From: Campylobacterales bacterium
Lineage (GTDB): Bacteria > Campylobacterota > Campylobacteria > Campylobacterales > QNZT01
Direction of reading: 5' to 3'
Assembly: GCA_029935075.1 (NCBI GenBank)
Contig: JAOZKZ010000004.1
Location: forward strand, 1-33,201
Length of the DNA stretch: 33,201 nucleotides
Under the pieces are notes generated by a model. The model had not been told where the DNA came from. It saw only the letters and a list, made by a program, of their open reading frames with translations, and ran no database searches. Positions within the stretch are counted from its first letter, which is position 1. Each line of letters opens with the position of its first letter. The position numbers and the translations under genes are program-made. Shown in pieces: positions 1,051 through 32,724 of this stretch.

Positions 1051-1067
1051 TCCTTTTCCTTTTTAAA

Positions 1068-1079
1068 TATTTATAAATA
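1068..1079. promoter_or_regulatory. Overlapping divergent T4-type late promoters (palindrome TATTTATAAATA)
   Basis: TATAAATA on minus (1068-1075, drives gp13) and on plus (1072-1079). Confidence 0.8.
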
Positions 1080-2234: not shown

Positions 2235-2252
2235 CCAAAAAGAAGGAAATTA

Positions 2253-5610: not shown

Positions 5611-5612
5611 TG

Positions 5613-6771: not shown

Positions 6772-6960
6772 TTATAAAAAGTACTCAGGGTAATTTTCTA
6801 TTTGTTCCTCTGGGGTCATTCTTCTTACACTATCGGCATAATTTTTTGAGTTGGTATATGCATAATCATCAATGATGTTAAACTTCTTGTGTAATTTGTG
6901 ATTAAAAAACACACACTTCTCATCACCTATCAACATCACGGTTACTTGGAGTCTTTTCAT
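6772..6960 (-). CDS. Small protein with C-terminal YPEYFL tag
   Basis: ORF with SD; ends ENYPEYFL*. Confidence 0.75.
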   Translation of the reverse strand: MKRLQVTVMLIGDEKCVFFNHKLHKKFNIIDDYAYTNSKNYADSVRRMTPEEQIENYPEYFL

Positions 6961-12187: not shown

Positions 12188-12673
12188 CTAAAGTAAAAAC
12201 TCAGGATACTTTGAACCTATCTCTTGGTATTTATTTCTTAATTCACCTTGGTTTTCTATGACTATTTTCCCGTCTTTATTAAAAATCCCTGATGGTACTT
12301 CATCATCTTCGTATCTATAATTACCAATCCAGCCCTCGGTTTCTATCCAAGGCTCTAGTACCTTAAGAAAATTTTCTATCTCCTCTTGGTAATTTTTAAT
12401 ATCAAAACGAGTAGTCAAAAAATACATAGGCTCATCGGGGTGTAAATCGTCTATTTCAAACTTAATAAAAGGAATCCCAGAGAAGTAATAAGAACTAGAG
12501 TTTCCTATGGTGCTGAGCCTTCCTTTTAATCCCTCCGGGGCTAATGATTCAGCTATTTCCCACCATCCTTCACTAAACCCTGTATTTGCCTGATAATCAA
12601 GCCATTTGAGTATCCCTTCAGGGGTGTCTTTTTTAAGTTCCGTTGCCAGGTAAAGTTCTGTGTACATTCCCAT
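12188..12673 (-). CDS. Hypothetical phage protein (MGMYTEL family) with C-terminal YPEFLL tag
   Basis: ORF with SD; ends KYPEFLL*. Confidence 0.75.
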   Translation of the reverse strand: MGMYTELYLATELKKDTPEGILKWLDYQANTGFSEGWWEIAESLAPEGLKGRLSTIGNSSSYYFSGIPFIKFEIDDLHPDEPMYFLTTRFDIKNYQEEIENFLKVLEPWIETEGWIGNYRYEDDEVPSGIFNKDGKIVIENQGELRNKYQEIGSKYPEFLL

Positions 12674-14635: not shown

Positions 14636-14692
14636 TTTAATCCTTCTCTCTTTAAGATATACTATTATACCATAATTATGCTTAAACCAAGG

Positions 14693-19376: not shown

Positions 19377-19685
19377 ATGTCAGACACACTTATTCAAACA
19401 GCCCAAAACAAAGAGTATACAAAATTTGAGGAAATTGCCAAAGAGAAGCTCCAGGCAAAAGTAGCCGAAAAGCTAAGTCAGAAGGGTTATTTTAAAAGAT
19501 TAGATGTAGCCAAAGCAGAGCTAACGGAATCCAAAGAAGAGTATCAAAAGTTCTTTCAAAAGACACTTAAGGAATTTGGTGTTAAGAGCCAGTCAGAATT
19601 ATCAGACGATAAGAAAAAAGAATTCTATGATGCCATAGACGCTGGATGGAAAGGCAAAGACGAAAAGCCAGAAAAGGGTGAATAA
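19377..19685 (+). CDS. Putative prohead core protein (gp67/gp68 position)
   Basis: Late promoter; immediately precedes gp21; charged; LTES cleavage-like site. Function inferred from position only. Confidence 0.6.
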   Translation: MSDTLIQTAQNKEYTKFEEIAKEKLQAKVAEKLSQKGYFKRLDVAKAELTESKEEYQKFFQKTLKEFGVKSQSELSDDKKKEFYDAIDAGWKGKDEKPEKGE

Positions 19686-21055
19686 TGGAATCAGAATTCG
19701 GTAAATTGAAAGCCAAAGACCCAAAGAAAGACAAGGACAAAGAAAAAGAAGAACTCCTTAAAAGAGCTGAAAAGAAATTTGAAGAAGACCCTGAAGACCC
19801 TGAAGAGGAAGAAACCGAAGAAAAGGACTCTAAGGACCCCGAAGACTCTGAAGACCCCGAAGAGGAATGTGATCCTGAAAAAGAGGATTGTAAAAAGAAA
19901 AAAGATATAAAAGAGAGCATATCAAAGATGAAATTATTAGTAGAAGACGCTTATGAAATGGAAACGGAAATCCTAGAAGAGCTTAACGAAAGCTCAACCA
20001 AGGAAAAGAATTACTACATATATGGTACATTTTCTACACCTGATAAGAAAAATCGTAATGGTCGTATATATAGTTCAAAATTATGGGAAGAAAATGTAAA
20101 CAATTATCAAGACCATATTAAAAACAATACTATCAATTCATTAGGTGAAATGGAACACCCTAGTCGTGTTAACCCTGACCCTATGAAAGCCGTAATGAAA
20201 ATCACTGAACTAAAAATGGAAGATAATCTTGTAAAAGGTAGAGCCCAAATCTTGAATAATAACTCACCAGATACCAATCAAATCAAAGCCTTGATAGACG
20301 AGGGTATTAAAATTGCGGTTTCATCACGCGGCACTGGGAGGATGAAAGGCTCAATAGTAGAAGAATTTGTCCTAAGCACTTTTGATGCGGTGAATTCTCC
20401 GAGTGATTACAATGCCAACTTAACAGGTATTAGAGAATCAGTAGAAGAGGCTGTCCTTTTGACCGAAAGTGGTTATAAATGCACCTCAGAAGGTTGTATA
20501 TTAGAAGGTACAGGCTCAGGTGATATCGCCCAGGACCCAGAATGTATCAACAATCTAATCAAAGAGATGAATATATTTTCAAGAGAAGTAAAAGACCTTA
20601 AAGAATCTGAAATCAAGGCTGTTATTTTAATGACCGAGGATGACCTTCAAACGGCCACAAAGCTTATTAAAAAGATGGGTATTGATTCCAGTGATATCGA
20701 GCTTAAGGGCAAGGCTGTCACAGTCACATTAAAGAACAAAGACGAAGCCCAAAAGGTCTTTAAAACCATGACTACTCTTGCCGGACAGCTTAAGGACAAG
20801 CCAGTTATTGTTAAAAAAGACAACAAAGTAACCATTTCAATGAATAAAGACATAGCCCTTGAATCCGAAGAAGTAGACGAAAGCGCTGTTGGGCTTGTGG
20901 GACGAAGCGGAACAGTTGATGCTGAAAATCACATCAACCAAAATCCAGATTTGATTAAAAGATTTAAAAAAATGATCAAAGAATTAGGTGGATTAACCGC
21001 TACTAGACAATTATTAAATACATTTGACCCTAAATTAAAAGGCATAGGTGAATGA
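19685..21055 (+). CDS. gp21: Prohead protease with long N- and C-terminal extensions
   Basis: YYIYGTF....KKNRNGRIY, LGEMEHP, VSSRGTG, DAV..PS..NA motifs. Confidence 0.92.
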   Translation: MESEFGKLKAKDPKKDKDKEKEELLKRAEKKFEEDPEDPEEEETEEKDSKDPEDSEDPEEECDPEKEDCKKKKDIKESISKMKLLVEDAYEMETEILEELNESSTKEKNYYIYGTFSTPDKKNRNGRIYSSKLWEENVNNYQDHIKNNTINSLGEMEHPSRVNPDPMKAVMKITELKMEDNLVKGRAQILNNNSPDTNQIKALIDEGIKIAVSSRGTGRMKGSIVEEFVLSTFDAVNSPSDYNANLTGIRESVEEAVLLTESGYKCTSEGCILEGTGSGDIAQDPECINNLIKEMNIFSREVKDLKESEIKAVILMTEDDLQTATKLIKKMGIDSSDIELKGKAVTVTLKNKDEAQKVFKTMTTLAGQLKDKPVIVKKDNKVTISMNKDIALESEEVDESAVGLVGRSGTVDAENHINQNPDLIKRFKKMIKELGGLTATRQLLNTFDPKLKGIGE

Positions 21056-21870
21056 ATACATTGTTAAATGATCGGCATTTTAAAGGTTATAATAGATTGA
21101 TAGATAATGCTTTATCTAAAAATAGGTCTAAAAAAGATGATATATATTATGAAAATCACCATATAATTCCTAGTGCTTTTGGTGGTAAGAATGAAAAGTC
21201 CAATATGGTATTGTTGACCGCTAAAGAACACTATATATCTCATTATTTAATATCTAAATTTGCTACTCATATTAGTGGTGCTGGATATCATAAAGCAATT
21301 CGAGGCTTTAAAATGATGCATACTATATCATCAAGCCATGATACTCGTTTTATAAATGCTTGTATGTATGAAAAATTGAAAATTAAGTATGCTGATATAT
21401 TAACAGGGCGTAAACTTTCGGATAAAACCAAAGAAAAAATTAGACAGGCTAATCTCGGCAAAACACTTTCAGATGAAACCAAAAGTAAAATATCATTAGG
21501 ATTAAAACAATACAACGAAAATAACATCCGTAAACCCCTTTCAGATGAAACCAAAGAAAAAATTAGACAGGCTAATCTCGGCAAAACTTATTCTGATGAA
21601 GTTAATGCTAAAAAAGGATTAAGTGGGAATAAAAACCCCTTTGCTAAATTAATATTGATATATGACAACAATGATAATATAATGTTCAAATGCTATGGTG
21701 ATTTTAAAAAAGTATGTTTAGATAATGAACTACCTTTTGTTACTTTAACAAAAAGTAAATCAAAAGGTGGAAAAAAAATATATATAAATTCAAAACCAAA
21801 AAATGAAAATTTTTTGAAATATGTTGGTTGGTATAGCAAAACAATGAACGCCAAACCAGAAAACGATTAA
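21052..21870 (+). CDS. HNH homing endonuclease with NUMOD3 repeats
   Basis: YYENHHIIP..FGG.NE..N.V.LTAKEHYISH; repeated LSDETKEKIRQANLGK. Confidence 0.88.
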   Translation: MNTLLNDRHFKGYNRLIDNALSKNRSKKDDIYYENHHIIPSAFGGKNEKSNMVLLTAKEHYISHYLISKFATHISGAGYHKAIRGFKMMHTISSSHDTRFINACMYEKLKIKYADILTGRKLSDKTKEKIRQANLGKTLSDETKSKISLGLKQYNENNIRKPLSDETKEKIRQANLGKTYSDEVNAKKGLSGNKNPFAKLILIYDNNDNIMFKCYGDFKKVCLDNELPFVTLTKSKSKGGKKIYINSKPKNENFLKYVGWYSKTMNAKPEND

Positions 21871-22728: not shown

Positions 22729-23478
22729 ATGGAAATGAACCCTATGTTCGAGTCAATGGATATTGACCTAGAAAAGAAAATTGAGTTGACAGAAGCTTTT
22801 GATAAAGCAGTCTTGGCTAAAACTACAGACATGATGGAAAATTATGTTGAAGAAAAAATCACAGAAAAAGAAGAAATCTTGAAAGAAGAGTACCAAGAGA
22901 AGGTACTTATGCTTGAAGATTCTCTTGATGGTTATCTTGACACTGTAGTAGAAGAGTTTATCTCTGAAAATGCACCTTCTTATGAAGCACAAATTACTGA
23001 CGAAAGATCAAAAAGCCTTCTTGAAATGTTTGACCAAATGATCAAAGTAGTAGGCATGGATATGTTGACTATTACTGAAGGTAAAGAAGAAAGAGACCAA
23101 GAAAATCTTGAGAATTCTGACCTATATATTGCTGAATCTTCAGTAGATACTTTGACTCAAAAAGTAGCAGACATGGCTGATAAGCTAGTAGAAGCTAAAA
23201 GAGAAGCAGATAAGTATCTTCAGAGTGGTTTGATGAATGAAATGAAAACAGACTTGACTATCCTTGAGGGTGAGAAGTTTGAAAAAATTGCTCAGATGAT
23301 GCCTTTTGAAAGAAGTTCTTCTTATCTTGATAAATTAGAAACACTTAAAGAATCTATTATTGATTCAAGAGCGGAAGATTTCGAGGTAGATAAAACTACT
23401 GCTTTGCCTACTGCGGCATTTAAGCAACCAGAAATAATTAGTGTAGATGATGCTTTGAATTTTGAAAAGTATGTCTAA
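22729..23478 (+). CDS. gp22: Prohead core scaffolding protein
   Basis: Acidic coiled coil with LDGYLD.VVEEF..EN motif; directly upstream of the major capsid gene; late promoter 22624. Confidence 0.85.
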   Translation: MEMNPMFESMDIDLEKKIELTEAFDKAVLAKTTDMMENYVEEKITEKEEILKEEYQEKVLMLEDSLDGYLDTVVEEFISENAPSYEAQITDERSKSLLEMFDQMIKVVGMDMLTITEGKEERDQENLENSDLYIAESSVDTLTQKVADMADKLVEAKREADKYLQSGLMNEMKTDLTILEGEKFEKIAQMMPFERSSSYLDKLETLKESIIDSRAEDFEVDKTTALPTAAFKQPEIISVDDALNFEKYV

Positions 23479-23609: not shown

Positions 23610-25124
23610 ATGAACAAAAAATATCAAAGTTTGATTGAATCAACTAAATACGCACCCCTTGATGAAGGGCAACAAAACACACTAGCCGCTGTAATGGAAG
23701 CTACTGCTAAAGAAACTGAAAGAATGATCGCTGAGGGAACAATCGCAGCGGATGTGGCCCAGTTTACGCCATTTTTAATGCCTATGCTAAGAAAAGTATA
23801 CCCAGCATTAGTAGCTAATGAACTCCTTGGTGTACAACCATTGAGTGGTCCTACTGGATTTATTTACTCATTGACTAACAGACTAGTCGGTAGTGCTAAC
23901 AATGGTCTTACTAAGCCAGGAACAAACGAGGGGCTTAACGGACCTAGTATGTATAACAAAACTAACGCGGCTACTCAGATTCTATTGGTAGATGCTTTTA
24001 CAGCGGCTGACCTTGGTAAAACAATCATCGTTGGTGGTATTACTGCTACTGTTGTATATGGTGAACCTGCTGCACACGGTGCTCTTGGTAGTAACTATCC
24101 TGCTGGTCAAATTGTAGGAAATAGTGTTGGTGGTGCTGAGGTTGGTGCTCAAGATGGTACTTCATTTGGTATCTTGGTAGAACTTCCAGCTAATACTTAC
24201 TATGGTAGAACTGGTGTAATCGTTCCTGCTAGTGGTGGTGATGTTACTGGTACTGCTACTGCTACTGCTGTTATTGCTTCATTTACTGGACTGGCAGCAT
24301 GGGACAAAATTCTTCCTAACTATAGTGGTTCTTATGTTACTGCTAATGGTGAGACAAGAGGTGTAGTCGGTAACGAAATGAACGAAGTAGGAATCGCTGT
24401 TGAGCGTACTCAAGTAGAAGCGAAGACTAGAAAGCTCAGAGCCGAGTATACAATCGAAATGTATCAAGACTTGAAAGCAATGCATGGTGTACTAGCGGAT
24501 CAAGAGCTTATGAGCCTTATGGGATACGAAATCAAAGCTGAAACAGACCGTGAAGTAGTAGATTTCGTTAACTCAAGAGCAGGCATCGAAGGCGACTTCT
24601 TTATGGATGGTTCTTATGATGGTACTGTTGGCACTCCTGCTATTTCTTCAGGTAGATGGGAAATTGAGAGATACAGAGCACTAGCGATTAAAATTGCTGA
24701 TATGTCAAGAAACATTGGTAGATTGAACAAAAGAGGCGCGGCTAACAAGCTTCTAGTTTCTCCTAAAGTTCTTACAGCACTTGAAGCAATGGGTTCTTTT
24801 ACTACTGCTCCTATTGATACTACTGTTAGTACTCAGAACTTGAACCCTGTTGCTGGTAGATTTGACAACAAGTATAATGTTATTGTTGATAATTATGCTG
24901 ATAATGGTGACTATGTTACTGCTATCTACAAAGGATCCAATCAGGACAGTTTGGGTGTTTATGCTCCTTATACTCCTGTTCAGATTCAGAAAGTGACTCA
25001 TGTAACGACTGGTCAGCCAGCATTGATTGCAATGTCGCGCTATGGTTTAGCCGAAAATCCATGGGGTGGTCAGAATTATGCGACTTCAATGGGAATTCAA
25101 TTCCAAAATACCGTACTTCAGTAG
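23610..25124 (+). CDS. gp23: Major capsid protein
   Basis: L.PMLRKVYP.LVANELLGVQPLSGPTG.IY, VEAKTRKLRAEYT.EMYQDLKAMHG, EI.AE.DRE, YAPY, QP.....SRYGL..NP. Confidence 0.97.
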   Translation: MNKKYQSLIESTKYAPLDEGQQNTLAAVMEATAKETERMIAEGTIAADVAQFTPFLMPMLRKVYPALVANELLGVQPLSGPTGFIYSLTNRLVGSANNGLTKPGTNEGLNGPSMYNKTNAATQILLVDAFTAADLGKTIIVGGITATVVYGEPAAHGALGSNYPAGQIVGNSVGGAEVGAQDGTSFGILVELPANTYYGRTGVIVPASGGDVTGTATATAVIASFTGLAAWDKILPNYSGSYVTANGETRGVVGNEMNEVGIAVERTQVEAKTRKLRAEYTIEMYQDLKAMHGVLADQELMSLMGYEIKAETDREVVDFVNSRAGIEGDFFMDGSYDGTVGTPAISSGRWEIERYRALAIKIADMSRNIGRLNKRGAANKLLVSPKVLTALEAMGSFTTAPIDTTVSTQNLNPVAGRFDNKYNVIVDNYADNGDYVTAIYKGSNQDSLGVYAPYTPVQIQKVTHVTTGQPALIAMSRYGLAENPWGGQNYATSMGIQFQNTVLQ

Positions 25125-25246: not shown

Positions 25247-26938
25247 ATGATAACCAACACAGAAGATTTTATTAAGAAAAGCAATATTGTTCATAAAAAT
25301 AAATATACATATAACAAAACATCATACATAAATACACACACAAAAGTAACCATAACATGCCCTGTGCATGGTGATTTTGAACAAAAACCCGTAAATCATT
25401 TAAATAGTAATGGGTGTTCCAAATGCTCTAATAAATACAAAAGAACACAAGAAGAATTTATAAATGAGTGTTTAATAAAACACCAAGGTTTTTATAGTTA
25501 TGGTGATGTGGTATATAAAAACCAAAAATCAAAAATAACCATAACATGCCCTGTGCATGGTGATTTTGAACAAACAGCATCAGATCATCTTTCTGGTTCT
25601 GGTTGTAGTGAATGTAGAAAAATCTATTTATCTAATAAATTTAAAAAGAGTCAAGAAAAATTTATAAATGAGTGTTTAATAAAACACCAAGGTTTTTATA
25701 GTTATTTACATACTAATTACGATAATTCATACTCAAAAATAACAATAACATGCCCTGTGCATGGTGATTTTGAACAAGTCGCCAAGGATCATCTTTCTGG
25801 TTCTGGTTGTAGTGAATGTGCACAAATTAAATTAAATAGACAATATATAAATCAGGGGTCCAATACACAAGAATTTATCCAAAAAGCAAAAATAACACAT
25901 AAAAACAAGTATAATTATGATAAAGTGGAATACAAATCTAGCCAAGAAAAGGTTTGTATTACTTGCCCAAAGCATGGTGATTGGGATACAAGACCAGATA
26001 ATCATATTAATGCAGGCTCTGGTTGTCCAAAATGTTCCAATAATATCTCAAAACCAGAGCAAGATATAGCAGATTTTATCAGGGATAATTACAAAGGAAC
26101 GGTAATTCAAAATGACAGGGTTGTTTTGAATGGTAAAGAATTGGATATTTATCTGCCTGATCTTGGGTTTGCCATAGAATATAATGGGCTGATGTGGCAT
26201 AGTTTCGGTAAACACAAGTCTGAAAAATTTGATAATTATTCTCTTGTACATGGGAATAAAAACAACCACTTAATCAAGACCAAAGAATGTGAAAAAAAGG
26301 GTATTCAGTTGTTTCATATTTTTGAAAATGAATACACCCAGAAGCAGGATATATGGTTGAATATAATCAAGGATAAACTACAAAAAAACCAAAAAATCGG
26401 GGCAAGAAAAACCACAATAAAAGAAATAACCCCGAAAGAACAAAGAGATTTTGAGAACAATAACCACTTACAGGGACAAGGCTTAAGCAGTATACGAATA
26501 GGTCTATTTTATGAACAAGAGTTAGTATCTTTAATGACATTTGGCAAGGCAAGGTTATCAAAAAAATATCAATACGAGATGATTAGATTTTGCTCAAAGA
26601 TAGGGTATACTATTCAAGGAGCAGCTTCAAAAATATTAAATTATTTTGAAAAAAAATACAACCCCTTGAGTATAGTATCTTATGCCAATAGAAGATACTC
26701 TGTGGGTAATTTATATAACCAATTAGGGTTTAAACTAGAGCATACATCCAAGCCAAATTTTTTCTATTTTGACAGGGAATATATACTATATAGTAGACAA
26801 AAATTTCAAAAACATAAACTTAAAAAAGAGTTAGAATTTTTTGATAATAACAAAACAGCCCTGATGAATATGTTTGATAATGACTACAGAGTTATCTACG
26901 ATTCTGGAAATATGGTGTTTGTGAAAGAATATTCATAA
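25247..26938 (+). CDS. Hef-like homing endonuclease (Zn-ribbon repeats, PD-(D/E)XK/Vsr-like domain, C-terminal domain)
   Basis: 4x ITCPxHGD; SKPEQ, ELDIYLP..GFAIEYNGLMWHS, LFHIFENE; NHLQG, RFCS....QGAASK, SYANRRYS.GNLY..LGF, IYDSG. Confidence 0.82.
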   Translation: MITNTEDFIKKSNIVHKNKYTYNKTSYINTHTKVTITCPVHGDFEQKPVNHLNSNGCSKCSNKYKRTQEEFINECLIKHQGFYSYGDVVYKNQKSKITITCPVHGDFEQTASDHLSGSGCSECRKIYLSNKFKKSQEKFINECLIKHQGFYSYLHTNYDNSYSKITITCPVHGDFEQVAKDHLSGSGCSECAQIKLNRQYINQGSNTQEFIQKAKITHKNKYNYDKVEYKSSQEKVCITCPKHGDWDTRPDNHINAGSGCPKCSNNISKPEQDIADFIRDNYKGTVIQNDRVVLNGKELDIYLPDLGFAIEYNGLMWHSFGKHKSEKFDNYSLVHGNKNNHLIKTKECEKKGIQLFHIFENEYTQKQDIWLNIIKDKLQKNQKIGARKTTIKEITPKEQRDFENNNHLQGQGLSSIRIGLFYEQELVSLMTFGKARLSKKYQYEMIRFCSKIGYTIQGAASKILNYFEKKYNPLSIVSYANRRYSVGNLYNQLGFKLEHTSKPNFFYFDREYILYSRQKFQKHKLKKELEFFDNNKTALMNMFDNDYRVIYDSGNMVFVKEYS

Positions 26939-26939
26939 G

Positions 26940-27227
26940 CTATAAGTAATACTCAGGGTATTCCTTGATTCCTTCCTCTTCCGTAAAAAACTTCAAAATC
27001 AGGTTATTAGGTATAAGATGACCCGTTTTCTTTTCTGTGTTGACTAGTCTTGCTAATTTTTGGCTGAATTTTCTCCTGTGTATCCAGAACAACCCATCCA
27101 AGAAATCCTTATGGTAATCGTAGATTTCTTCAGGGGTTTTCCTAAACACAAGAAGATTTTCAAGCCGTTTTTTATAGAGCTTTTTTGATATGGTCTTGAT
27201 AAGATACTTGCCTTTTTTTGTTTCCAT
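26940..27227 (-). CDS. PE-tag array protein (ends EYPEYYL)
   Basis: AGGAG SD; C-terminal tag. Confidence 0.8.
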   Translation of the reverse strand: METKKGKYLIKTISKKLYKKRLENLLVFRKTPEEIYDYHKDFLDGLFWIHRRKFSQKLARLVNTEKKTGHLIPNNLILKFFTEEEGIKEYPEYYL

Positions 27228-27236
27228 TTCTTCTCC

Positions 27237-27485
27237 TTATAAGTAATACTCAGGGTGGTCTTCTATGGGAACTTCTCTTACTAAGTTAAACCTAGCCATG
27301 TCTTGGTCAAGATTCATCGTTATTATATATGCCCCATCATCCCATGTGTCTTGTGTCTTGTTTAATCCAGGGTCAGAGGCATGGACAAATTCTCCTAGTA
27401 TACCCCATTCTATGTGTTTTTTTGATATGATTTTCACCACAGAGTTATCCTCGGTGTAATAAAACCGTTTTGCTTTTATTTCCAT
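27237..27485 (-). CDS. PE-tag array protein (ends DHPEYYL)
   Basis: AAGGA SD; C-terminal tag. Confidence 0.8.
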   Translation of the reverse strand: MEIKAKRFYYTEDNSVVKIISKKHIEWGILGEFVHASDPGLNKTQDTWDDGAYIITMNLDQDMARFNLVREVPIEDHPEYYL

Positions 27486-27495
27486 TTAGTTCCTT

Positions 27496-27735
27496 TCATA
27501 GGTAGTACTCCGGGTATTCTCCTGGGGTGATTTTTCTTATCACTGAATTATCAATAAAAAACTCAAAGTAGTGTAGCTCTTGCTCGTTCAATACACCTTT
27601 TAAGACCTTTTTTATGGTTATGGTCTCGTATTCATCCTTTTGGCAGATAAAACCGTACTCAGGGTTTGTAAAAAGGTAGTCCTGCCGGGGTTCCATATCA
27701 TTGTGTGTCTGTATATCCTCTGGTATATTTGTCAT
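27496..27735 (-). CDS. PE-tag array protein (ends KITPGEYPEYYL)
   Basis: ATGA overlap; C-terminal tag. Confidence 0.8.
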   Translation of the reverse strand: MTNIPEDIQTHNDMEPRQDYLFTNPEYGFICQKDEYETITIKKVLKGVLNEQELHYFEFFIDNSVIRKITPGEYPEYYL

Positions 27736-27944
27736 AGGTAGTACTCCGGGTATTCTCCCGGGGTGATTTTTTTAATCACAATATCATCCTTTATTAACAC
27801 ATACCCTTTGTCTTTACCCTTGATATATAATCGTTTATTCATTAGTCTTGTTATTACACATATATTGTTACTCAGGTGTCCTTCTTTACATACCCAGGTG
27901 AACTCGGCATTTACTAGGTCAAGGGCTTTCATTTTAATACACAT
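27732..27944 (-). CDS. PE-tag array protein (ends KITPGEYPEYYL)
   Basis: AGGAG SD; C-terminal tag. Confidence 0.8.
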   Translation of the reverse strand: MCIKMKALDLVNAEFTWVCKEGHLSNNICVITRLMNKRLYIKGKDKGYVLIKDDIVIKKITPGEYPEYYL

Positions 27945-27966
27945 CTGTTCTCCTATAAGATCTCTT

Positions 27967-28188
27967 TCAAAGAAAGTATTCAGGGTTGTCTTTAACAGTG
28001 ACTCTTTTTACAAGGTCAAAATGATGTTCTTGTTCCCAATACTTGCCTTGTAGGGTAAAAGCATATTGTTTCTCATTGGTGTTACATATTACAGGATAAC
28101 TAATACCGTCTTGTATTTCTGTTACTTGGAGTAGTTCGTTCTGCCTTGTTACATAATACTCATTTACTTTAATATTCATATCTTTCAT
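27967..28188 (-). CDS. PE-tag array protein (ends DNPEYFL)
   Basis: ATGA overlap; C-terminal tag. Confidence 0.8.
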   Translation of the reverse strand: MKDMNIKVNEYYVTRQNELLQVTEIQDGISYPVICNTNEKQYAFTLQGKYWEQEHHFDLVKRVTVKDNPEYFL

Positions 28189-28484
28189 AGGTAGTACTCT
28201 GGGTACAAGGACATCACCATGTCCTTTGCTGTAGGGTGGTTCATAATAATTTTAATGAGCCTGAATGCCCTCATGTCCGCTTCGCCATTGATATCAAGAT
28301 GTATACTCGTTTCTATCTGGTTGGGGTTTTTACATGCTATGTCATCTATCTCAACACTATTTTGGTCTTTGTCCGTGACTATTGCTATGGTAACAGCATC
28401 ATTTGAATCCTCCCCATCATTATACATGTACATTACTATGTCATTTATTTTCACATCGTGCCAGCTTGGTGATTTTGGGGTCAT
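28185..28484 (-). CDS. PE-tag array protein (ends LYPEYYL)
   Basis: AGGAG SD; C-terminal tag. Confidence 0.8.
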   Translation of the reverse strand: MTPKSPSWHDVKINDIVMYMYNDGEDSNDAVTIAIVTDKDQNSVEIDDIACKNPNQIETSIHLDINGEADMRAFRLIKIIMNHPTAKDMVMSLYPEYYL

Positions 28485-28492
28485 TTGTTCTC

Positions 28493-28777
28493 CTATAGGT
28501 ACATCTCGGGGTACTTTTCAATATCAAAGTAAATAAAACTATAATAATCTTTTATATGACTTAGGCTTTTCTTGTGTACTGTCCATCTTTCTCTGGTATT
28601 AGCTGAGTTTGGTCCCCAATCGGGTATATCAATGTCTTTAAAACACACCTCTTCAGGGTCAAGGAAATACATATCACTATTTTTTTCCCATTTCGTTTTG
28701 CCAGTCAGGCTAGAATATTTAATAAGATACATCCCTTCTTTGAAGTCTTTGAACTCATTTATTCTTGTGCCTTTCAT
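28493..28777 (-). CDS. PE-tag array protein (ends KYPEMYL)
   Basis: ATGA overlap; C-terminal tag. Confidence 0.8.
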   Translation of the reverse strand: MKGTRINEFKDFKEGMYLIKYSSLTGKTKWEKNSDMYFLDPEEVCFKDIDIPDWGPNSANTRERWTVHKKSLSHIKDYYSFIYFDIEKYPEMYL

Positions 28778-29130
28778 AGAAAATACTCGGGGTATCGCTT
28801 AATCATACCTTTTGTGCAAAAATTGTAAAAATGTTTTATGTTTTTTAGTTCGTTTTTAACTATGTCTCTGTTGAAATACATCTCATCATCAGTCTCATTA
28901 TACCTATAACCCCTTACGAAAAAATCATTAGGATATCGGCAGAATTCGTTTACTTTATGAAAAATAGTAAACCCTTTGGTGTAATATATGGATTTAGTAA
29001 GCTTTAGGGACAAGTATTCTTGTCCCTTTACTTTTACTATACACATAGGCACAACGGTGTTTTCTGCTTTGACATCCAATAATCCATAGTAATCTGAATC
29101 ATTCAGGCTGAATATTCTATCCTCATGCAT
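28774..29130 (-). CDS. PE-tag array protein (ends RYPEYFL)
   Basis: Early promoter 29156-29178; C-terminal tag. Confidence 0.8.
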   Translation of the reverse strand: MHEDRIFSLNDSDYYGLLDVKAENTVVPMCIVKVKGQEYLSLKLTKSIYYTKGFTIFHKVNEFCRYPNDFFVRGYRYNETDDEMYFNRDIVKNELKNIKHFYNFCTKGMIKRYPEYFL

Positions 29131-29184
29131 CTTAATCCTTCTTTAAATATACCTTATTATACCACAAAAAAGCTTAAAAAGAGC

Positions 29185-29436
29185 TTAAAGGAACCTTTCT
29201 GGGTAATTTTGTATTAACAAGTCTCTTAACATATCATCGGATAACCAAGGGTACTCATGTCCTTTTAAAAAATTCTCGAAGTCTTCTATTGATTTGATGC
29301 CCTTGGTCTCGTATACCTCTATTGTACAGTCTACTTCTAAAGACTTCAGAGAAGGTACTGAGATATTAGATCCAAGGCAAGAGTATTGGTTAACATCACG
29401 GGTATTTATTGATATATCTTTTACTCTGTAATTCAT
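29185..29436 (-). CDS. PE-tag array protein (ends NYPERFL)
   Basis: ATGA overlap; C-terminal tag. Confidence 0.8.
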   Translation of the reverse strand: MNYRVKDISINTRDVNQYSCLGSNISVPSLKSLEVDCTIEVYETKGIKSIEDFENFLKGHEYPWLSDDMLRDLLIQNYPERFL

Positions 29437-29624
29437 AGCAAGTACTCCGGGTGTTCTTTTACAAGGCTTTTATGAGTCATTTTGAACCCCCTGTCATTAA
29501 GCTCCAGCAAGACCAGTCTCATCACGGTGGTAAACAGACCCCTGGTGTAGTCGATAAAATACTCATTGATAAGTTCTTTTTTACTCAGTGTTTTCATTGT
29601 TTTTGTTGTTTGTCTTGACCTCAT
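29433..29624 (-). CDS. PE-tag array protein (ends EHPEYLL)
   Basis: Early promoter 29648-29669; C-terminal tag. Confidence 0.75.
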   Translation of the reverse strand: MRSRQTTKTMKTLSKKELINEYFIDYTRGLFTTVMRLVLLELNDRGFKMTHKSLVKEHPEYLL

Positions 29625-29709
29625 CTTGTTCCTTTGTTCTCTGTTGTATTATACCACAATAACCTTAAAACACCCTTATTAGTTTTATAAATACTATAAA
29701 AGGAGAAGA

Positions 29710-30150
29710 GTGAACACAGCAATAATAGCATTTGAAAAGGGCAATTCGTTTTCCGCCAAGGTAATAAAATACATTACCAAATCAAAGTACAGTCATTGTG
29801 AACTAATCATAGATAATAAGTGGATATCCTCAGACCCTAAAGTGGGCGGTGCTTATGTTAATGACCTAAGACCCCTTACAGACAAATACGATTATATAAC
29901 AGTATATGTAGACGGGGCAACAAAAAGAAAAGCCCTAGGGTTTGCCAATAATCAAGTAGGTAAAAAATACGATTGGTGTGGTGTTTTGTGTACTCATCTG
30001 TTCAAGATAGACAGAGAAAATAACGACAAGTGGTTTTGTTCTGAATTGGTATGTACTTTACTTCAAAAGATGGAAAATCCCCAGGTAAAAGGAGCAAAAC
30101 CAGCAGACCTGACACCACAAGACCTCTACGAGATTTTTAGAGGTGTTTGA
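29710..30150 (+). CDS. Permuted papain-like (YiiX/YaeF, permuted NlpC/P60) enzyme
   Basis: I...T.SKYSHCEL (His first), GKKYD, WFCSELV (Cys second), TP.DL; late promoter 29686. Confidence 0.82.
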   Translation: MNTAIIAFEKGNSFSAKVIKYITKSKYSHCELIIDNKWISSDPKVGGAYVNDLRPLTDKYDYITVYVDGATKRKALGFANNQVGKKYDWCGVLCTHLFKIDRENNDKWFCSELVCTLLQKMENPQVKGAKPADLTPQDLYEIFRGV

Positions 30151-30349
30151 CTTAAAGGATATTTTTATGAAGATTGTATCGTCTTTGGTAATCATGGGTA
30201 TATCATGGATGGTATATACCACGGTAGAAACCAAAGGACACCTCAGGTTAATCGAATACAAACTAGACCAGAACAATATAATCTTACAAAATTTATATGA
30301 AACAAAACAAAACAAAACAAAACAAAACAAGGAACAAAATGACATTTAA
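30143..30349 (+). CDS. Small single-TM coiled-coil protein (possibly lysis-related)
   Basis: TM segment IVSSLVIMGISWMVY followed by heptads; 3' end crosses the AAAAC repeat. Confidence 0.55.
   Translation: MFDLKDIFMKIVSSLVIMGISWMVYTTVETKGHLRLIEYKLDQNNIILQNLYETKQNKTKQNKEQNDI
30300..30330 (+). repeat. Pentanucleotide simple sequence repeat (AAACA)x6
   Basis: Read directly from the sequence. Confidence 0.9.
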
Positions 30350-30833
30350 AAACTACATCAAGCAGAACATACAAGAAGATACAAACAAACAAGAGTTCAT
30401 AGAAAATGTGACCAAAAGCTTCAAGAAGCACTTTCCGAATGGATTTATAAGCCTTAGTGATAAAAGCCAATTTGGGAGTGATTTGATCTCTGGGACTTTT
30501 GGAATGATTGGGAACCTTAAGGACAATACCTCAGGCATCCCTGGTAATGATAAAATGAAGCACTCTTTTATGATGTTTAAGAACCCCGGGACAGAGCCAG
30601 AGACATATAAGTTTGAAGGTCAAGGCAGGATTTACACCAATCCTGAAAAGGGCTCCTTTAATGCCATGGATTCAATCAAGACCAAGTTAGGCAACAATTC
30701 CAAGATTACATTAGAAAAAGCCCAGATAAAATTAGAGAAATTCTTTAAAAAGCTCTCTGGGTTAATGAAAGACAACAAAGATAACATATTCGGTGTTGAA
30801 GATATAGACAAGAAATACCTTGTGTTTAAATGA
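30339..30833 (+). CDS. Late protein with CTS-like leader (MTFKNYIKQNIQE), paralog of 14183..14635
   Basis: AAGGA SD before ATG 30339; homology visible along the whole length. Confidence 0.8.
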   Translation: MTFKNYIKQNIQEDTNKQEFIENVTKSFKKHFPNGFISLSDKSQFGSDLISGTFGMIGNLKDNTSGIPGNDKMKHSFMMFKNPGTEPETYKFEGQGRIYTNPEKGSFNAMDSIKTKLGNNSKITLEKAQIKLEKFFKKLSGLMKDNKDNIFGVEDIDKKYLVFK

Positions 30834-31240
30834 TAAATTTTAAAAAATACCTGAAAGAAGTTGTCAGCCAAGATTGCTCAACAGGTTCAGGGGTAATACC
30901 AGATGGTCCTTATCAAAGTTGGGTAGTCATTCGGACAAACCACCTTGATTCTCCAAGACCACCATCCGAAAGACCAAGAGACTACGGTTGGGAATGTGAT
31001 GATTTTGAAGATGTAGTAACAGCATTTTTGAAAAAACGACCAATGGGCATCAAAGACGGCAAATATCTTATAGAATGGAAAAATAAAAAAGGATATCAAT
31101 GTTTAGTAATGAATATAGACAATAAAAGGAAAGAAATGACCGTTATTACTATGATTCAACTTAACAAAAAATCCTCAGGGGGTTATAATGCTTCAGGGGC
31201 TAAGTTTATAGGGATAGGTAATATAAATATTCCAGACTAA
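30830..31240 (+). CDS. Late protein with CTS-like leader (MINFKKYLKE)
   Basis: ATGA overlap with the upstream gene. Confidence 0.75.
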   Translation: MINFKKYLKEVVSQDCSTGSGVIPDGPYQSWVVIRTNHLDSPRPPSERPRDYGWECDDFEDVVTAFLKKRPMGIKDGKYLIEWKNKKGYQCLVMNIDNKRKEMTVITMIQLNKKSSGGYNASGAKFIGIGNINIPD

Positions 31241-31258
31241 GAGCCTAAAAGGAAAGAG

Positions 31259-31837
31259 ATGAAACAGACTAAACACACAAATGAAAATGTCGTAATAACA
31301 GAAACAACGAAATTTTACGAGGGAAATTTTTTAAAAAATGCCATGAAAAAAGCAAAATCTTTTGTTAAAGACACCTACCGAGATGTCAAAAGAAATGCCA
31401 AAGGGATAATAAAAGACCTTAAGAAGAAATACTCCCAGTCTAAAAAACCAGAGAATTTCATAGCAGGCAAGATGATAGCATTCCAATACAAGGCAAAAGA
31501 TGCCACGAAAAAATACGATGCTTCTCCTTTGGTGATATCACTGGGGTATTCTCAGAACCCTAAATACAGACAGACACACTTCATCGGGTTAAACTGCCAT
31601 TGGCTTCCGATGAACGACAGAGTAAAAATTTCTTCTTTTTTTGTAGAACTAAGCGAAAAAAGAAACGGCAAGTTATTGTATTCTGATGTCAAACCATTCT
31701 TAAGCAAGTTCAAAGGACACCCAGTCCTAAGACAATATATAATAAAAAATGTGGGCCCTAAGGTAATAGAAATGCCTTCTGATGTTTTCATGACAGCAGC
31801 GGCCGTACCATCTGAAAATTGGATGGGTGGAAGATAA
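31259..31837 (+). CDS. gp2: DNA end protector protein (T4 gp2-like)
   Basis: GKM..F.Y.AK....YD..PLVI.L......F.GLN.HWLP...R, ..RQYI...V; adjacent to gp4. Confidence 0.8.
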   Translation: MKQTKHTNENVVITETTKFYEGNFLKNAMKKAKSFVKDTYRDVKRNAKGIIKDLKKKYSQSKKPENFIAGKMIAFQYKAKDATKKYDASPLVISLGYSQNPKYRQTHFIGLNCHWLPMNDRVKISSFFVELSEKRNGKLLYSDVKPFLSKFKGHPVLRQYIIKNVGPKVIEMPSDVFMTAAAVPSENWMGGR

Positions 31838-31842
31838 GGAAT

Positions 31843-31932
31843 TATAAATAAAGTGTAAGTTGATGGTGTCGAAACCCTCTTGATTACCTATAGTCAAGAT
31901 AGCCTTACAAATTCTTCATATAGGAAAACAAA
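31843..31932 (+). ncRNA. Late promoter plus conserved structured leader, copy 3
   Basis: TATAAATA AAGTGTAAGTTGATG GTGTCGAAACCC TCTTGATT-ACCTAT-AGTCAAGA TAGCCTTACAA...ATAGGAAAACAAAATG. Confidence 0.7.
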
Positions 31933-32724
31933 ATGATAATATACAAAGCTACTTCAAACACATCAGGTAAAAGTTATATTGGCGCTACAAGCAGAACCAT
32001 AGAACTTAGACAAAAAGAACATGAAAAATTAGCAAATTTAAACCCCAAAAATAAACATTTTTATTACGCTTTACTAAAATACGGATACAACGATTTTGAT
32101 TGGTGTGTTTTAGAAGAAGCAGAAACACAAGAATTAATGTATATAAAAGAAAAAGAATATATTAAAAAATTTAACACATATTCTAAAGGATACAACATGA
32201 CACCAGGTGGAGAAGGAGGCAGATCTGGAAAATATTCAGAAGATGATAGAAAAAGACTTTACTCTAATAGAAAATATAATTCTGATAGCACGGGCAAAAA
32301 ATCAATGTACTTCTTAGGCATAAATAAGTGTAGATTTGTTGATAAAAAAGATATACCTTATTATCTTGAACAAGGGTGGATGATGGGATCGAAAAAAAGG
32401 TCTCTTAAAAAACATACTTGTAAACTACCACCCAAAAAAAAATATAGTACTAAGCCTTTTTTGACCGGATTAAATAACCCATCTGGGATGATAATAGAAA
32501 TCTACGACAATAATCACAACCTTGTAGTGACCTCCGAAGGGAGTTTAAAAAATGTTTGTAAAAAATTAGGTGTGCCTTATGGTCAAATAGCAAACAGTTT
32601 TAAAACGGGGGTGCCCTTATATCACAATACAAAAGACAATGTGATGACAAGGTTAAAAAACAATGGCAATATAAAATTCAAAGGTTGGTATGCGATTAAA
32701 ATACAAGATAAGGAAAGAAAATGA
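31933..32724 (+). CDS. GIY-YIG homing endonuclease
   Basis: IIYKAT...SGKSYIGAT....R..EH, AL.KYG..DF.W.VLE, KE.EYI....T...GYNMT.GGEG. Confidence 0.88.
   Translation: MIIYKATSNTSGKSYIGATSRTIELRQKEHEKLANLNPKNKHFYYALLKYGYNDFDWCVLEEAETQELMYIKEKEYIKKFNTYSKGYNMTPGGEGGRSGKYSEDDRKRLYSNRKYNSDSTGKKSMYFLGINKCRFVDKKDIPYYLEQGWMMGSKKRSLKKHTCKLPPKKKYSTKPFLTGLNNPSGMIIEIYDNNHNLVVTSEGSLKNVCKKLGVPYGQIANSFKTGVPLYHNTKDNVMTRLKNNGNIKFKGWYAIKIQDKERK

What the first reader, a model, noticed from the sequence alone, without database searches (positions are those of the whole stretch)
26940..29624. Array of ten unrelated small early proteins sharing a C-terminal [Y/H/N]PE[Y]xL-stop tag
Seen: ten consecutive minus-strand ORFs (63-118 aa) have dissimilar bodies but end YPEYYL, HPEYYL, YPEYYL, YPEYYL, NPEYFL, YPEYYL, YPEMYL, YPEYFL, YPERFL and HPEYLL, with the stop always right after the final Leu. 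Codons vary synonymously (CCT/CCG/CCA/CCC, GAG/GAA, TAT/TAC, TTA/CTA/CTT; all three stops), so selection acts on the peptide. Two early promoters (29156, 29648) drive the array. Established: free C-terminal hydrophobic peptides act as docking signals, e.g. the T4 gp55/gp33/gp43 tails binding the gp45 clamp, the SSB tail, and protease degrons. Inference: this is a modular system of variable cargo plus a constant docking tag, in which diverse domains are recruited to one hub (clamp, RNA polymerase, protease/adaptor or conjugating enzyme), for example for host takeover or anti-defence. I do not recognise this motif from any described system.
Basis: partly seen in the sequence, partly recalled or inferred. 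Interest (0 to 1): 0.9.

Follow-up and report, generated by a model that had tools for sequence, protein, structure and literature searches.

The report
Shared C-terminal address tag on phage proteins
A group of T4-like phages, including lab-grown Vibrio phages, ends about a sixth to a quarter of its otherwise unrelated small early proteins with the same short C-terminal peptide, which looks like an undescribed address label read by one still unknown receptor.

Summary
The ten minus-strand ORFs (26940-29624) end [YHN]PExx-Leu-stop and lie behind two early promoters.

- **Extent:** this T4-like phage sits in a Campylobacterales assembly and has 46 such endings, against 3 internal matches.
- **Relatives:** five uncultured relatives carry 7-51 tagged ORFs each. 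The cultured Vibrio phage phiKT1024 carries 79 among 331 ORFs.
- **Motif:** a roughly 9-residue terminal motif, hydrophobic-[EK]-x-[YFH]-P-[EQ]-x-[FYL]-[LIV]-COOH, enriched 500-900-fold at termini.
- **Bodies:** unrelated. 236 tagged proteins fall into 198 clusters.
- **Modularity:** seven outside homologues of one body lack the tag, so it is an add-on.
- **Concerted change:** the last residue (L, I or V) and the E/Q position switch genome by genome, also within orthologues. This implies one trans-acting, co-evolving receptor.
- **Clamp unlikely:** DNA polymerase and a gp33-like protein carry a different tail, [LI][DE][DE]W.
- **Expression:** 41 of 42 tagged genes have an early promoter as nearest upstream promoter, and they lack membrane segments.
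- **Codons:** where the next gene overlaps (ATGA), the Pro-Glu codons are CCG-GAG, which also forms its Shine-Dalgarno.

The receptor and the outcome (turnover, remodelling or recruitment) remain unknown. Five literature searches found no description of the tag.

The parts
26940..27227 (-). Tagged early ORF 1, 95 aa, ends EYPEYYL; last gene of the array.
   Evidence: No homologue other than itself in the 5.8-billion-protein search. No Pfam family; only a weak phrog_20045 hit (E 0.0089).
27237..27485 (-). Tagged early ORF 2, 82 aa, ends DHPEYYL.
   Evidence: No Pfam or PHROGs family.
27496..27735 (-). Tagged early ORF 3, 79 aa, ends EYPEYYL.
   Evidence: The tag-coding stretch contains a CCGGG/CCCGG hairpin, seen as a terminator-like site on the opposite strand.
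27732..27944 (-). Tagged early ORF 4, 70 aa, ends EYPEYYL. Its stop overlaps the start of ORF 3 (ATGA).
27967..28188 (-). Tagged early ORF 5, 73 aa, ends DNPEYFL.
   Evidence: The ESM Atlas features search returned only viral hypothetical clusters.
28185..28484 (-). Tagged early ORF 6, 99 aa, ends LYPEYYL. ATGA overlap with ORF 5.
   Evidence: BLASTP relative in L004 (3353-3631) that ends KFPEYTL.
28493..28777 (-). Tagged early ORF 7, 94 aa, ends KYPEMYL.
28774..29130 (-). Tagged early ORF 8, 118 aa, ends RYPEYFL. ATGA overlap with ORF 7.
   Evidence: No usable ESM Atlas hit.
29185..29436 (-). Tagged early ORF 9, 83 aa, ends NYPERFL. It is followed by the internal early promoter.
29433..29624 (-). 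Tagged early ORF 10, 63 aa, ends EHPEYLL; first gene of the array. ATGA overlap with ORF 9.
29648..29656 (-). Extended -10 early promoter (TGGTATAAT) in front of the array.
   Evidence: The window holds 16 such sites against 3.0 expected.
29156..29164 (-). Second extended -10 early promoter, between ORF 9 and ORF 8.
6772..6960 (-). Further tagged ORF in the window, 62 aa, ends NYPEYFL.
12188..12673 (-). Further tagged ORF, 161 aa, ends KYPEFLL. The body belongs to phrog_4334. The tag sits on an extension of about 20 aa that homologues elsewhere lack.
   Evidence: AF2 model with mean pLDDT 83.8: fold in residues 1-140, helix 142-155, then a short helical turn in the tag.

Best explanation
The ten ORFs belong to a proteome-wide class of soluble early accessory proteins in a clade of T4-like phages. 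Each carries a short C-terminal address tag: hydrophobic-[EK]-x-[YFH]-Pro-[Glu/Gln]-x-[Phe/Tyr/Leu]-[Leu/Ile/Val]-COOH.

**Shown**
- The tag is strictly terminal and is selected as a peptide.
- It is modular, appended to bodies of independent origin.
- It is restricted to early genes.
- It is conserved from a phage binned with a Campylobacterales genome to cultured Vibrio phages.
- Its last residue and its Glu/Gln position change in concert across all tagged genes of a genome, including orthologues.

**Inferred**
- One common trans-acting receptor reads the free C-terminus, with a pocket for the last aliphatic side chain.
- The receptor co-evolves with each phage lineage and is therefore most likely phage-encoded.
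- Up to about a quarter of the proteome would compete for one site. I therefore favour a turnover-type receptor that handles proteins (timed removal, unfolding or remodelling of early proteins) over a stoichiometric scaffold.
- The only protein-handling machine conserved in all four near-complete tagged genomes is a MoxR-type AAA+ ATPase with a DUF2201 HExxH-metallopeptidase/VWA partner. It is my leading but weak receptor candidate (about 0.15).
- The sliding clamp is unlikely to be the receptor.
For: **Terminal enrichment.** It is 525-945-fold in each of six genomes, and 46 terminal against 3 internal in the assembly.

**Peptide-level selection.**
- CC and GA are invariant while third positions vary: CCT 26, CCA 10, CCC 6, CCG 6; GAG 38, GAA 10.
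- Information content falls to background upstream of position -9.

**Unrelated bodies.**
- 172 tagged ORFs fall into 157 BLASTP clusters.
- 236 fall into 198 phmmer clusters.
- The ten have no Pfam family; weak PHROGs hits for 5 of them, none better than E 0.0089.

**Add-on.** The body of 12188-12673 is phrog_4334. All seven database homologues (126-151 aa) lack both the tag and the C-terminal extension.

**Concerted switches, last residue.**

| Genome | Last residue |
|---|---|
| G000 | L 48 of 49 |
| G001 | L 23 of 23 |
| G002 | I 5 of 7 |
| G003 | I 28, V 23 |
| G004 | V 28, I 11, L 1 |
| G005 | PQ at -5/-4 in 22 ORFs, nearly all ending I |
| phiKT1024 | I 68, V 7, L 3, F 1 |

**Orthologues follow their genome.**
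- Family A2 ends FPEYFL, FPERFI, NPQYIV, YPHYTI and YPEKLI.
- Family A5 ends PEYFL, PEVFI, PELFI and PFIFI.

**Breadth.** Of 61 full-length representatives of family A5 in a 1.84-billion-protein library, 52 end [PILV][EQ]xx[LIVF].

**Early class.** For 41 of 42 tagged genes the nearest upstream same-strand promoter is TGnTATAAT. Untagged ORFs split 145 early, 146 late and 28 none.

**Soluble.** A TM-like segment occurs in 4 of 205 small tagged proteins against 109 of 682 small untagged ORFs.

**Clamp clients use another tail**.

**MoxR and DUF2201 pair.**
- Present in G000, G003, G005 and phiKT1024.
- Next to tagged genes in each genome where neighbours were listed.
- No match in 5 of 5 tag-less T4-like genomes, two of them 100% complete.
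Against: - **No receptor identified.** Nothing here shows binding or any effect on stability.
- **Weak phyletic link.** The tagged genomes form one clade, so any clade-specific gene would correlate equally well with the tag.
- **MoxR is not sufficient.** MoxR-type ATPases occur widely (595 phage records). Phage phiTE has one but shows no shared C-terminal motif in its first 50 kb.
- **G004 shows no pair.** It has 39-40 tags but no detectable MoxR or DUF2201. It is only a 44%-complete fragment.
- **The tag may pack on its own body.** In both AF2 models it is a short helical turn after the proline at moderate confidence: pLDDT block means of 78 then 54, and 88 then 69. Packing was not inspected.
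- **Little or no linker.** In many small proteins the tag follows the last predicted strand directly.
- **RNA-level constraint.** Synonymous sites in the tag are biased, so some RNA-level constraint exists.
- **A host receptor is not excluded.** Lineage-specific tag variants would then track different hosts, and the hosts of G001-G005 are unknown.
Confidence: 0.55

Rival explanations
1. The tag is a C-degron for a host protease (ClpXP, ClpAP, Lon, FtsH or HslUV type). It gives early proteins a short half-life, so they vanish once early transcription stops. Tag variants follow the preferences of different hosts.
For: - The last three residues are apolar with a free carboxylate, and the genes are early and soluble.
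- From recalled literature, apolar C-termini destabilise proteins in bacteria.
- A catalytic receptor copes with many clients.
- The tagged phages appear to have very different hosts: Vibrio and, judged from binning, Campylobacterales.
Against: - The invariant Pro and the Glu/Gln four to five residues from the end, and the near-pure L, I or V usage per genome, are more specific than known bacterial C-degrons, which as recalled end in Ala-Ala or are loosely hydrophobic.
- Host proteases are highly conserved, while the tag varies among close relatives.
- No tmRNA was found in the assembly for comparison with the host's own degron.
Confidence: 0.15
2. The tag is a cis-acting structural cap or self-association element. 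The helix-Pro-short-helix ending packs on each protein's own body or mediates oligomers, without a common receptor.
For: - AF2 places the tag as a short helix after a Pro break, with moderate pLDDT.
- In small proteins there is no linker.
- In family A5 the motif aligns as part of the family profile, and Pro is replaced by Ile, Val or Leu in 18 of 61 members.
Against: - Bodies differ in size (53-379 aa) and sequence: 236 tagged proteins fall into 198 clusters.
- Seven homologues of one body fold without the tag.
- A cis-acting cap would be tuned to each protein. Instead the last residue and the E/Q position switch for all tagged genes of a genome together.
Confidence: 0.08
3. The tag recruits proteins to a replication or transcription hub, such as the gp45 clamp or RNA polymerase.
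For: From recalled literature, T4 uses C-terminal hydrophobic tails on gp43, gp33 and gp55 to bind the clamp. The phage encodes gp45, gp44, gp32 and gp55.
Against: - DNA polymerase (G002, G003, G005, phiKT1024), the 80-aa protein next to gp55 (G000, G005, phiKT1024) and phiKT1024 RNase H end in [LI][DE][DE]W-type tails, not the tag.
- Twenty to 79 different clients would compete for a stoichiometric site.
- None of phiKT1024's annotated enzymes carries the tag.
Confidence: 0.07
4. The tag is a capsid-targeting or cargo-loading peptide. Tagged proteins are packed into the head and injected with the DNA.
For: From recalled literature, C-terminal targeting peptides exist for encapsulins and for the HK97 prohead protease, both HK97-fold shells. 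The window's array lies beside the head genes.
Against: - For 41 of 42 tagged genes the nearest upstream promoter is early, and no late TATAAATA lies in the array.
- Dozens of different cargo proteins would be unprecedented for a T4-like head.
- The prohead protease and the scaffold do not carry the tag.
Confidence: 0.05
5. The conserved element is a nucleic-acid cassette, either for translational coupling or a PeSL-like recombination module. The conserved peptide is only a by-product.
For: - With an ATGA stop/start overlap the tag uses GAG 57 to GAA 6 and CCG in 34 of 63. Without overlap it uses GAG 52 to GAA 85 and CCG in 6 of 137 (Fisher p 4e-13 and 3e-15).
- Tags at operon ends run into promoter and stem-loop sequence.
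Against: - First and second codon positions are fixed while third positions vary.
- 137 of 200 PE tags have no overlapping downstream start.
- G003 and G005 keep the peptide with near-background codons and almost no overlaps: 1 of 50 and 2 of 20.
- A Shine-Dalgarno requirement does not explain the Pro, the aromatic residues or the aliphatic last residue.
Confidence: 0.04

Closest known systems
T4 sliding-clamp-binding C-terminal tails (gp43, gp33, gp55, RNase H); recalled from the literature
   Same: A short hydrophobic or acidic peptide at the extreme C-terminus, shared by unrelated proteins of a T4-type phage and read by one partner.
   Different: In this clade those clients carry a separate tail, [LI][DE][DE]W. 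The PE tag sits on 20-79 small early proteins of unknown function, not on replisome or late-transcription proteins.
ssrA-type and other bacterial C-terminal degrons (ClpXP, ClpAP, FtsH, Lon); recalled
   Same: A free C-terminus with apolar last residues, transferable to any body, and a catalytic receptor that can serve many clients.
   Different: It is encoded in the genes rather than added by tmRNA. It has an invariant Pro and a Glu/Gln and ends in an aromatic plus Leu/Ile/Val rather than Ala-Ala. No effect on stability has been shown.
Class II PDZ ligands and the C-terminal tail of PP2A-type phosphatases; recalled look-alikes
   Same: Acidic residue, aromatic, aromatic, aliphatic, COOH at the very end, read together with the carboxylate.
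   Different: Those are eukaryotic systems. No Pfam PDZ_2, PDZ_6 or LCM methyltransferase match was found in G003-G005. In the tag, position -2 is more conserved than position -3, the reverse of what I recall for PDZ ligands.
C-terminal sorting signals (peroxisomal PTS1, encapsulin cargo-loading peptides, the HK97 protease targeting tail); recalled
   Same: One short terminal peptide marks many unrelated proteins for one receptor, and lineage-specific variants occur.
   Different: No compartment is known in T4-like infections, and the tagged genes are early rather than co-expressed with the capsid.
PeSL promoter-early stem-loop cassettes of T4-type phages (Arbiol et al. 2010); recalled, not read here
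   Same: Associated with arrays of novel small early ORFs and early promoters in hyperplastic regions.
   Different: PeSLs are intergenic DNA elements. Here a coding peptide is conserved while its synonymous sites vary.
MoxR AAA+ / VWA partner systems; recalled examples are CbbQ-CbbO and RavA-ViaA
   Same: The phage clade conserves a MoxR ATPase and a VWA protein with an intact DxSGS MIDAS motif and an HExxH motif. In such systems, as recalled, the VWA domain engages an acidic residue of the client.
   Different: No link to the tag has been shown. The pair also occurs in phages without the tag.

Membership tests
T4-type clamp-binding tail | Present at the C-terminus of the DNA polymerase and of the late-transcription co-activator of the same phage. 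| tested here: not met
   Polymerases end DLDEW, ADEPW, EIDEW and SLDDW. The 80-aa neighbour of gp55 ends FDLDEW, NIEEW or KQEEW. None carries the PE tag.
T4-type clamp-binding tail | Binds gp45. | not testable with these tools
Bacterial C-degron (ssrA-like) | Terminal position with a free carboxylate and apolar last residues. | tested here: met
   The stop follows the last Leu, Ile or Val in every case. The last three positions are mostly Tyr, Phe or Leu, then aliphatic.
Bacterial C-degron (ssrA-like) | Shortens the half-life through a AAA+ protease. | not testable with these tools
   Needs pulse-chase experiments.
PDZ class II ligand | Hydrophobic-x-hydrophobic-COOH. | tested here: met
   Positions -3 and -1 are Tyr and Leu/Ile/Val in most tags. 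This is a resemblance only.
PDZ class II ligand | A PDZ-domain receptor is present. | tested here: not met
   PF13180 and PF17820 give no match in G003, G004 or G005. The nine matches in G000 lie on contigs without tagged genes. Divergent domains could be missed.
Capsid cargo-loading peptide | Cargo is co-expressed with the capsid (late). | tested here: not met
   41 of 42 tagged genes lie behind early-type promoters. No TATAAATA occurs on the minus strand in the array.
PeSL-type DNA cassette | Conservation at the nucleotide level, independent of reading frame. | tested here: not met
   Conservation has three-base periodicity, and all four Pro codons and both Glu codons are used.
Single paralogous protein family with a structural C-terminal element | Detectable homology of the bodies. 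| tested here: not met
   236 tagged proteins fall into 198 phmmer clusters at E <= 0.01. The eight of the ten ORFs that survived my overlap filter have no neighbour. No Pfam family; weak PHROGs hits for 5 of them, none better than E 0.0089. Remote fold similarity among the small proteins was not tested.
MoxR-VWA client | Receptor pair present in every tagged genome and absent elsewhere. | tested here: inconclusive
   Present in 4 of 4 near-complete tagged genomes. Not found in the G004 fragment. Absent in 5 of 5 tag-less T4-like genomes. Present in tag-less phiTE and many other phages.

The most novel reading that the evidence does not exclude
These phages run a private protein-addressing system. 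A genetically encoded C-terminal postcode marks a sixth to a quarter of the proteome, all early accessory proteins, for one phage-encoded receptor that sorts, remodels or destroys them on schedule. The code drifts between lineages (Leu/Ile/Val, Glu/Gln), so related phages would be mutually orthogonal. This would be a new layer of temporal control in phage infection and a ready-made portable tag and receptor pair.
Probability: 0.4. Interest if true: 0.92.

Novelty: new variant of a known kind. Interest (0 to 1): 0.86.

Why it matters
- **Function of orphan genes.** Small early phage genes are the largest pool of unknown function in phage biology. A shared, transferable tag says that dozens of them per genome pass through one common step, so one experiment (finding the receptor) would bear on the whole class.
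- **Searchable marker.** The tag marks this gene class in metagenomes.
- **Experimental system.** Cultured hosts are available: the Vibrio phages phiKT1024, Pv27, phiTY18 and Va1.
- **Natural specificity series.** The L, I and V variants and the E/Q variants can be tested against each other.
- **Possible tool.** If the tag is a degron or a docking tag, it would be an orthogonal tool for bacteria.
- **Coding economy.** The double use of the Pro-Glu codons as the next gene's Shine-Dalgarno is a compact example of overlapping protein and translation signals.

Tried and rejected
- **Complex prediction.** I ran the DUF2201 VWA-metallopeptidase (alignment A1) with Zn and Mg against the tagged family A2. 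The score was 0.00 against a mark of 0.32, and the tool's verdict was 'no answer'. It counts neither for nor against binding. The single job is used, so clamp, MoxR, host ClpX and DnaN were not tried.
- **Receptor domains.** Pfam PDZ_2, PDZ_6 and LCM (leucine carboxyl methyltransferase) gave no match in the phage records.
- **Polymerase and clamp in the window's assembly.** DNA_pol_B and gp45-slide_C gave no match in G000. The clamp was later found through PHROGs. The polymerase is missing from the bin.
- **Host degron.** aragorn found no tmRNA.
- **Other receptor candidates, not supported.**
  - Hsp20 (C1 1950-2444) has no detectable counterpart in phiKT1024.
  - The 186-aa protein that heads tagged arrays in three genomes also occurs in tag-less phages C48C1 and Paraglaciecola GD virus 1.
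  - The 160-aa clade-specific protein (C1 14864-15346) always follows the primase gene, is an internal duplication, and was not found in G003. I consider it more likely a replisome factor.
  - The 137-aa protein had no match in phage records.
- **Fold searches.** The two AF2 models gave no PDB match at E <= 0.001.
- **ESM Atlas.** It gave nothing usable.
- **DNA similarity.** Megablast of the array against 50,697 phage records found no match.
- **Literature.**
  - Five text searches found no description of the tag. The pentapeptide words hit only unrelated texts, for example on microcin J25.
  - In the Pv27 and phiTY18 papers I used 'find' only. 'C-terminal', 'C-terminus' and 'motif' occur 0 times in each.
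- **ORF filter.** My greedy overlap filter dropped two of the ten ORFs (27732-27944 and 28185-28484) from the counts.
- **ORF sets.** They are mechanical, so untagged 'small ORFs' include spurious frames.

Full report
**What the window is.** The window is a whole contig, C199, of a 2.43 Mb assembly of 334 contigs.
- It encodes a T4-type head module on the plus strand: portal gp20 at 2253-3788, prohead protease gp21 at 19685-21055, scaffold gp22 at 22729-23478 and major capsid protein gp23 at 23610-25124.
- Each of the gp20, gp22 and gp23 genes has a TATAAATA late-promoter word just upstream; gp21 follows a small ORF that has one.
- Long minus-strand blocks of small ORFs lie behind TGGTATAAT early-promoter words: 16 in the window against 3.0 expected.
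- The assembly holds one copy each of gp20, gp21 and gp23, so it contains one such phage.
- Tagged genes lie on eight contigs (C1, C3, C63, C132, C199, C280, C307, C334) that total about 230 kb by my sum of the lengths.
- The rest of the assembly is a Campylobacterales bacterium. Its HtrA is 90% identical to that of a Campylobacterales MAG.
- The host link rests on binning only.

**The observation.**
- The codon variety and the three stop codons are as described.
- The two promoters are at 29156 and 29648.
- The window holds two more tagged ORFs, 6772-6960 and 12188-12673.
- In the assembly, [YHND]PE.[YFLM]L occurs 46 times at the end of an ORF and 3 times inside one, among 9971 ORFs and 1,083,564 positions.
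- Two further PE..L endings, on C150 and C243, look like chance.

**Reach of the tag.**
- I fetched loci around gp23 relatives from IMG/VR. Tags appear in 8 of the 13 loci with gp23 identity of 55% or more. L004 has 23 tagged ORFs in 15.7 kb.
- Loci L014-L054 (gp23 47% or less) show none apart from one weak single match in L034.
- Whole records give the following counts of mechanical ORFs of 50 aa or more:

| Record | Size | Tagged ORFs |
|---|---|---|
| G002 | 18.8 kb | 7 of 49 |
| G004 | 81.7 kb | 40 of 230 |
| G003 | 235.6 kb | 51 of 800 |
| G005 | 183 kb | 22 with Pro-Gln at -5/-4, plus a further set ending P-x-x-F-I |

- The cultured Vibrio phage phiKT1024 (OM249648.1, gp23 about 45% identical) has 79 tagged ORFs among 331 after an overlap filter.
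- After the same filter, 236 of 1527 ORFs in six genomes are tagged.
- Terminal enrichment over internal occurrence is 525-945-fold in each genome.
- A whole-genome pattern scan found 0-2 matches in five tag-less T4-like genomes (one of them has an in-frame stop), including Campylobacter phage CP21. It found 8-27 in G001-G004 and 1 in G005, whose Gln form the pattern excludes.
- A profile of the one tagged family found in G000 and in G003-G005, A5, found 76 representatives in 1.84 billion proteins. Of the 61 that are full length, 52 end [PILV][EQ]xx[LIVF].

**Anatomy of the tag.**
- Information content is high from -9 to -1 and at background before that: hydrophobic at -9, Glu/Lys at -8, Tyr/Phe/His at -6, invariant Pro at -5, Glu or Gln at -4, mostly Tyr at -3, Phe/Tyr/Leu at -2 and Leu/Ile/Val at -1. 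It is a short linear motif, not a domain.
- Two AF2 models were made: the 161-aa protein (mean pLDDT 83.8) and family A5 (79.7). Both show a C-terminal helix broken at the proline and followed by a one-turn helix, with confidence falling at the very end.

**The bodies are unrelated and the tag is an add-on.**
- With the last 8-9 residues removed, 172 tagged proteins form 157 BLASTP clusters and 236 form 198 phmmer clusters.
- Sizes run from 53 to 379 aa.
- The ten have no Pfam family; weak PHROGs hits for 5 of them, none better than E 0.0089. ORF 1 has no homologue in a 5.8-billion-protein search.
- The body of 12188-12673 belongs to phrog_4334 (E 8e-20). Its seven database homologues are 126-151 aa long and end without the tag and without the 20-residue extension that carries it.

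**Concerted change: the key argument.**
- The last residue is nearly pure within a genome and differs between genomes:
  - Leu in G000 (48 of 49) and G001 (23 of 23).
  - Ile in G002 (5 of 7), G005 and phiKT1024 (68 of 79).
  - Val in G004 (28 of 40).
  - Ile and Val in G003.
- Glu at -4 is replaced by Gln in G005 and in 15 of 51 tags in G003.
- Orthologues change with their genome (families A2 and A5), so descent within a genome does not explain the pattern.
- Leu, Ile and Val are one base apart (NTA codons). A tolerant reader would give mixtures, so purity points to selection by one reader per lineage.
- A cis-acting structural role would be tuned protein by protein, not genome by genome.
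- I infer a common trans-acting receptor with a pocket for the last side chain. It is probably phage-encoded because it drifts among related phages.

**What kind of genes carry the tag.**
- For 41 of 42 tagged genes in G000 the nearest same-strand upstream promoter word is early. Untagged ORFs split 145 early, 146 late and 28 none.
- Only 4 of 205 small tagged proteins have a TM-like segment, against 109 of 682 small untagged ORFs, a set inflated by spurious frames.
- None of phiKT1024's annotated enzymes is tagged. All tagged genes there are 'hypothetical protein'.

**Not the clamp.**
- A second terminal motif, [LI][DE][DE]W, ends the DNA polymerases of G002, G005 and phiKT1024; G003's polymerase ends in the related ADEPW.
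- It also ends the 80-aa protein next to the late sigma factor gp55 in G000, G005 and phiKT1024, phiKT1024 RNase H, and a few others.
- In T4 these are the clamp's clients (recalled), so this tail is the likely clamp address and the PE tag goes elsewhere.

**Candidate receptors.**
- Of 57 families shared by phiKT1024 and at least two of the other genomes, most are structural or replication proteins.
- The only protein-handling pair is a MoxR-type AAA+ ATPase (C132 8183-9307) and a DUF2201 protein (C132 32806-34089) with intact HExxH and DxSGS motifs.
- The ATPase sits among tagged genes in G000, G003, G005 and phiKT1024.
- The pair is present in all four near-complete tagged genomes and gave no match in five tag-less T4-like genomes.
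- The tagged genomes are one clade, however. MoxR ATPases are common in phages, and tag-less phiTE has one.
- I rate this candidate at about 0.15.

**Dual coding.**
- Synonymous sites in the tag are biased. The bias is tied to ATGA stop/start overlaps with the next gene:

| Context | GAG : GAA | CCG |
|---|---|---|
| ATGA overlap | 57 : 6 | 34 of 63 |
| No overlap | 52 : 85 | 6 of 137 |

- Fisher p values are 4e-13 and 3e-15.
- CCG-GAG contains GGAG about nine bases before the overlapping ATG, and the NTA last codon supplies the A of ATGA.
- So the peptide is primary and its codons are secondarily tuned as the next gene's ribosome-binding site. G003 and G005 have almost no overlaps and keep the peptide with near-background codons.

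**Verdict.**
- The modular-tag reading is supported. The hub is unknown, and the clamp is unlikely.
- The best reading is a C-terminal address tag for one co-evolving, probably phage-encoded receptor that handles early accessory proteins (confidence 0.55).
- The rivals are a host-protease degron, a cis-acting cap, hub recruitment, capsid loading and an RNA or DNA cassette.
- I found no description of the tag in print. Supplements were closed.

Noticed in passing
G000 C280 3012-3254(-), C1 4360-5598(-), C1 8248-9609(-); G002 1033-3681(-); G005 28834-31854(+), 77913-78158(+); phiKT1024 79565-79825, 150095-151225: A second shared C-terminal tail, [LI][DE][DE]W-COOH. It sits on DNA polymerases, on an 80-aa protein next to the late sigma factor gp55 (gp33-like) and on several other proteins. 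It is probably this clade's clamp or replisome docking tail.
   Followed up: partly
window 27496-27530 and 27732-27766 (tag-coding ends of ORFs 3 and 4): The sequence encoding PGEYPE forms a 9-bp GC-rich hairpin (CCGGG/CCCGG) that covers the GGAG used as Shine-Dalgarno for the next gene. The terminator scan reports it on the opposite strand.
   Followed up: no
window 1158-2234(+), 5613-6602(-), 21052-21870(+), 25247-26938(+), 31933-32724(+): Five homing-endonuclease-like genes (DUF723 zinc-ribbon repeats with T5orf172, and GIY-YIG/HNH types) are scattered through the window, four of them among the late genes. One lies between gp21 and gp22, and one lies between gp23 and the tagged array.
   Followed up: no
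window 4549-5625(-) and 8514-9590(-): An HD-domain plus P-loop kinase fusion and an RNA ligase lie in the early block, a likely RNA-repair pair.
   Followed up: no
G003 (7 copies, e.g. 100661-101389) and G005 (10 members, e.g. 129527-130153): A multi-copy family of 180-430 aa with weak leucine-rich-repeat hits. All copies are tagged (ending FPQYFI in G003 and FPYHFI in G005). A short relative exists in phiKT1024 (140797-141054).
   Followed up: partly
G000 C93 2522-3046(-) and 3706-4449(-): A second, more distant MoxR ATPase with a DUF2201-like neighbour lies on a contig without tagged genes. It may be host-encoded or belong to another element.
   Followed up: no
Proteins P0011, P0013, P0014, P0016 and others of family A5: In 18 of 61 full-length members of the tagged family A5, the otherwise invariant Pro at -5 is Ile, Val or Leu (endings such as YIEAFI). 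Whether whole genomes switch in this way could not be checked, because these proteins come without genomic context.
   Followed up: no
G000 C1 14864-15346(-); G004 10332-10793; G005 84283-84714; phiKT1024 14680-15135: A 143-160-aa internally duplicated protein always follows the primase gene. Among 50,697 phage records it is found only in the six phiKT1024-group Vibrio phages.
   Followed up: partly
window 19685-21055(+): The prohead protease homologue is 456 aa. The Peptidase_S77 match covers only residues 106-246, so it carries large extra regions of unknown role.
   Followed up: no
phiTE (JQ015307.1) 1-50000: Two ORFs end WDDDVPF and WDDAAPF. From memory these resemble SSB-type acidic tails.
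   Followed up: no
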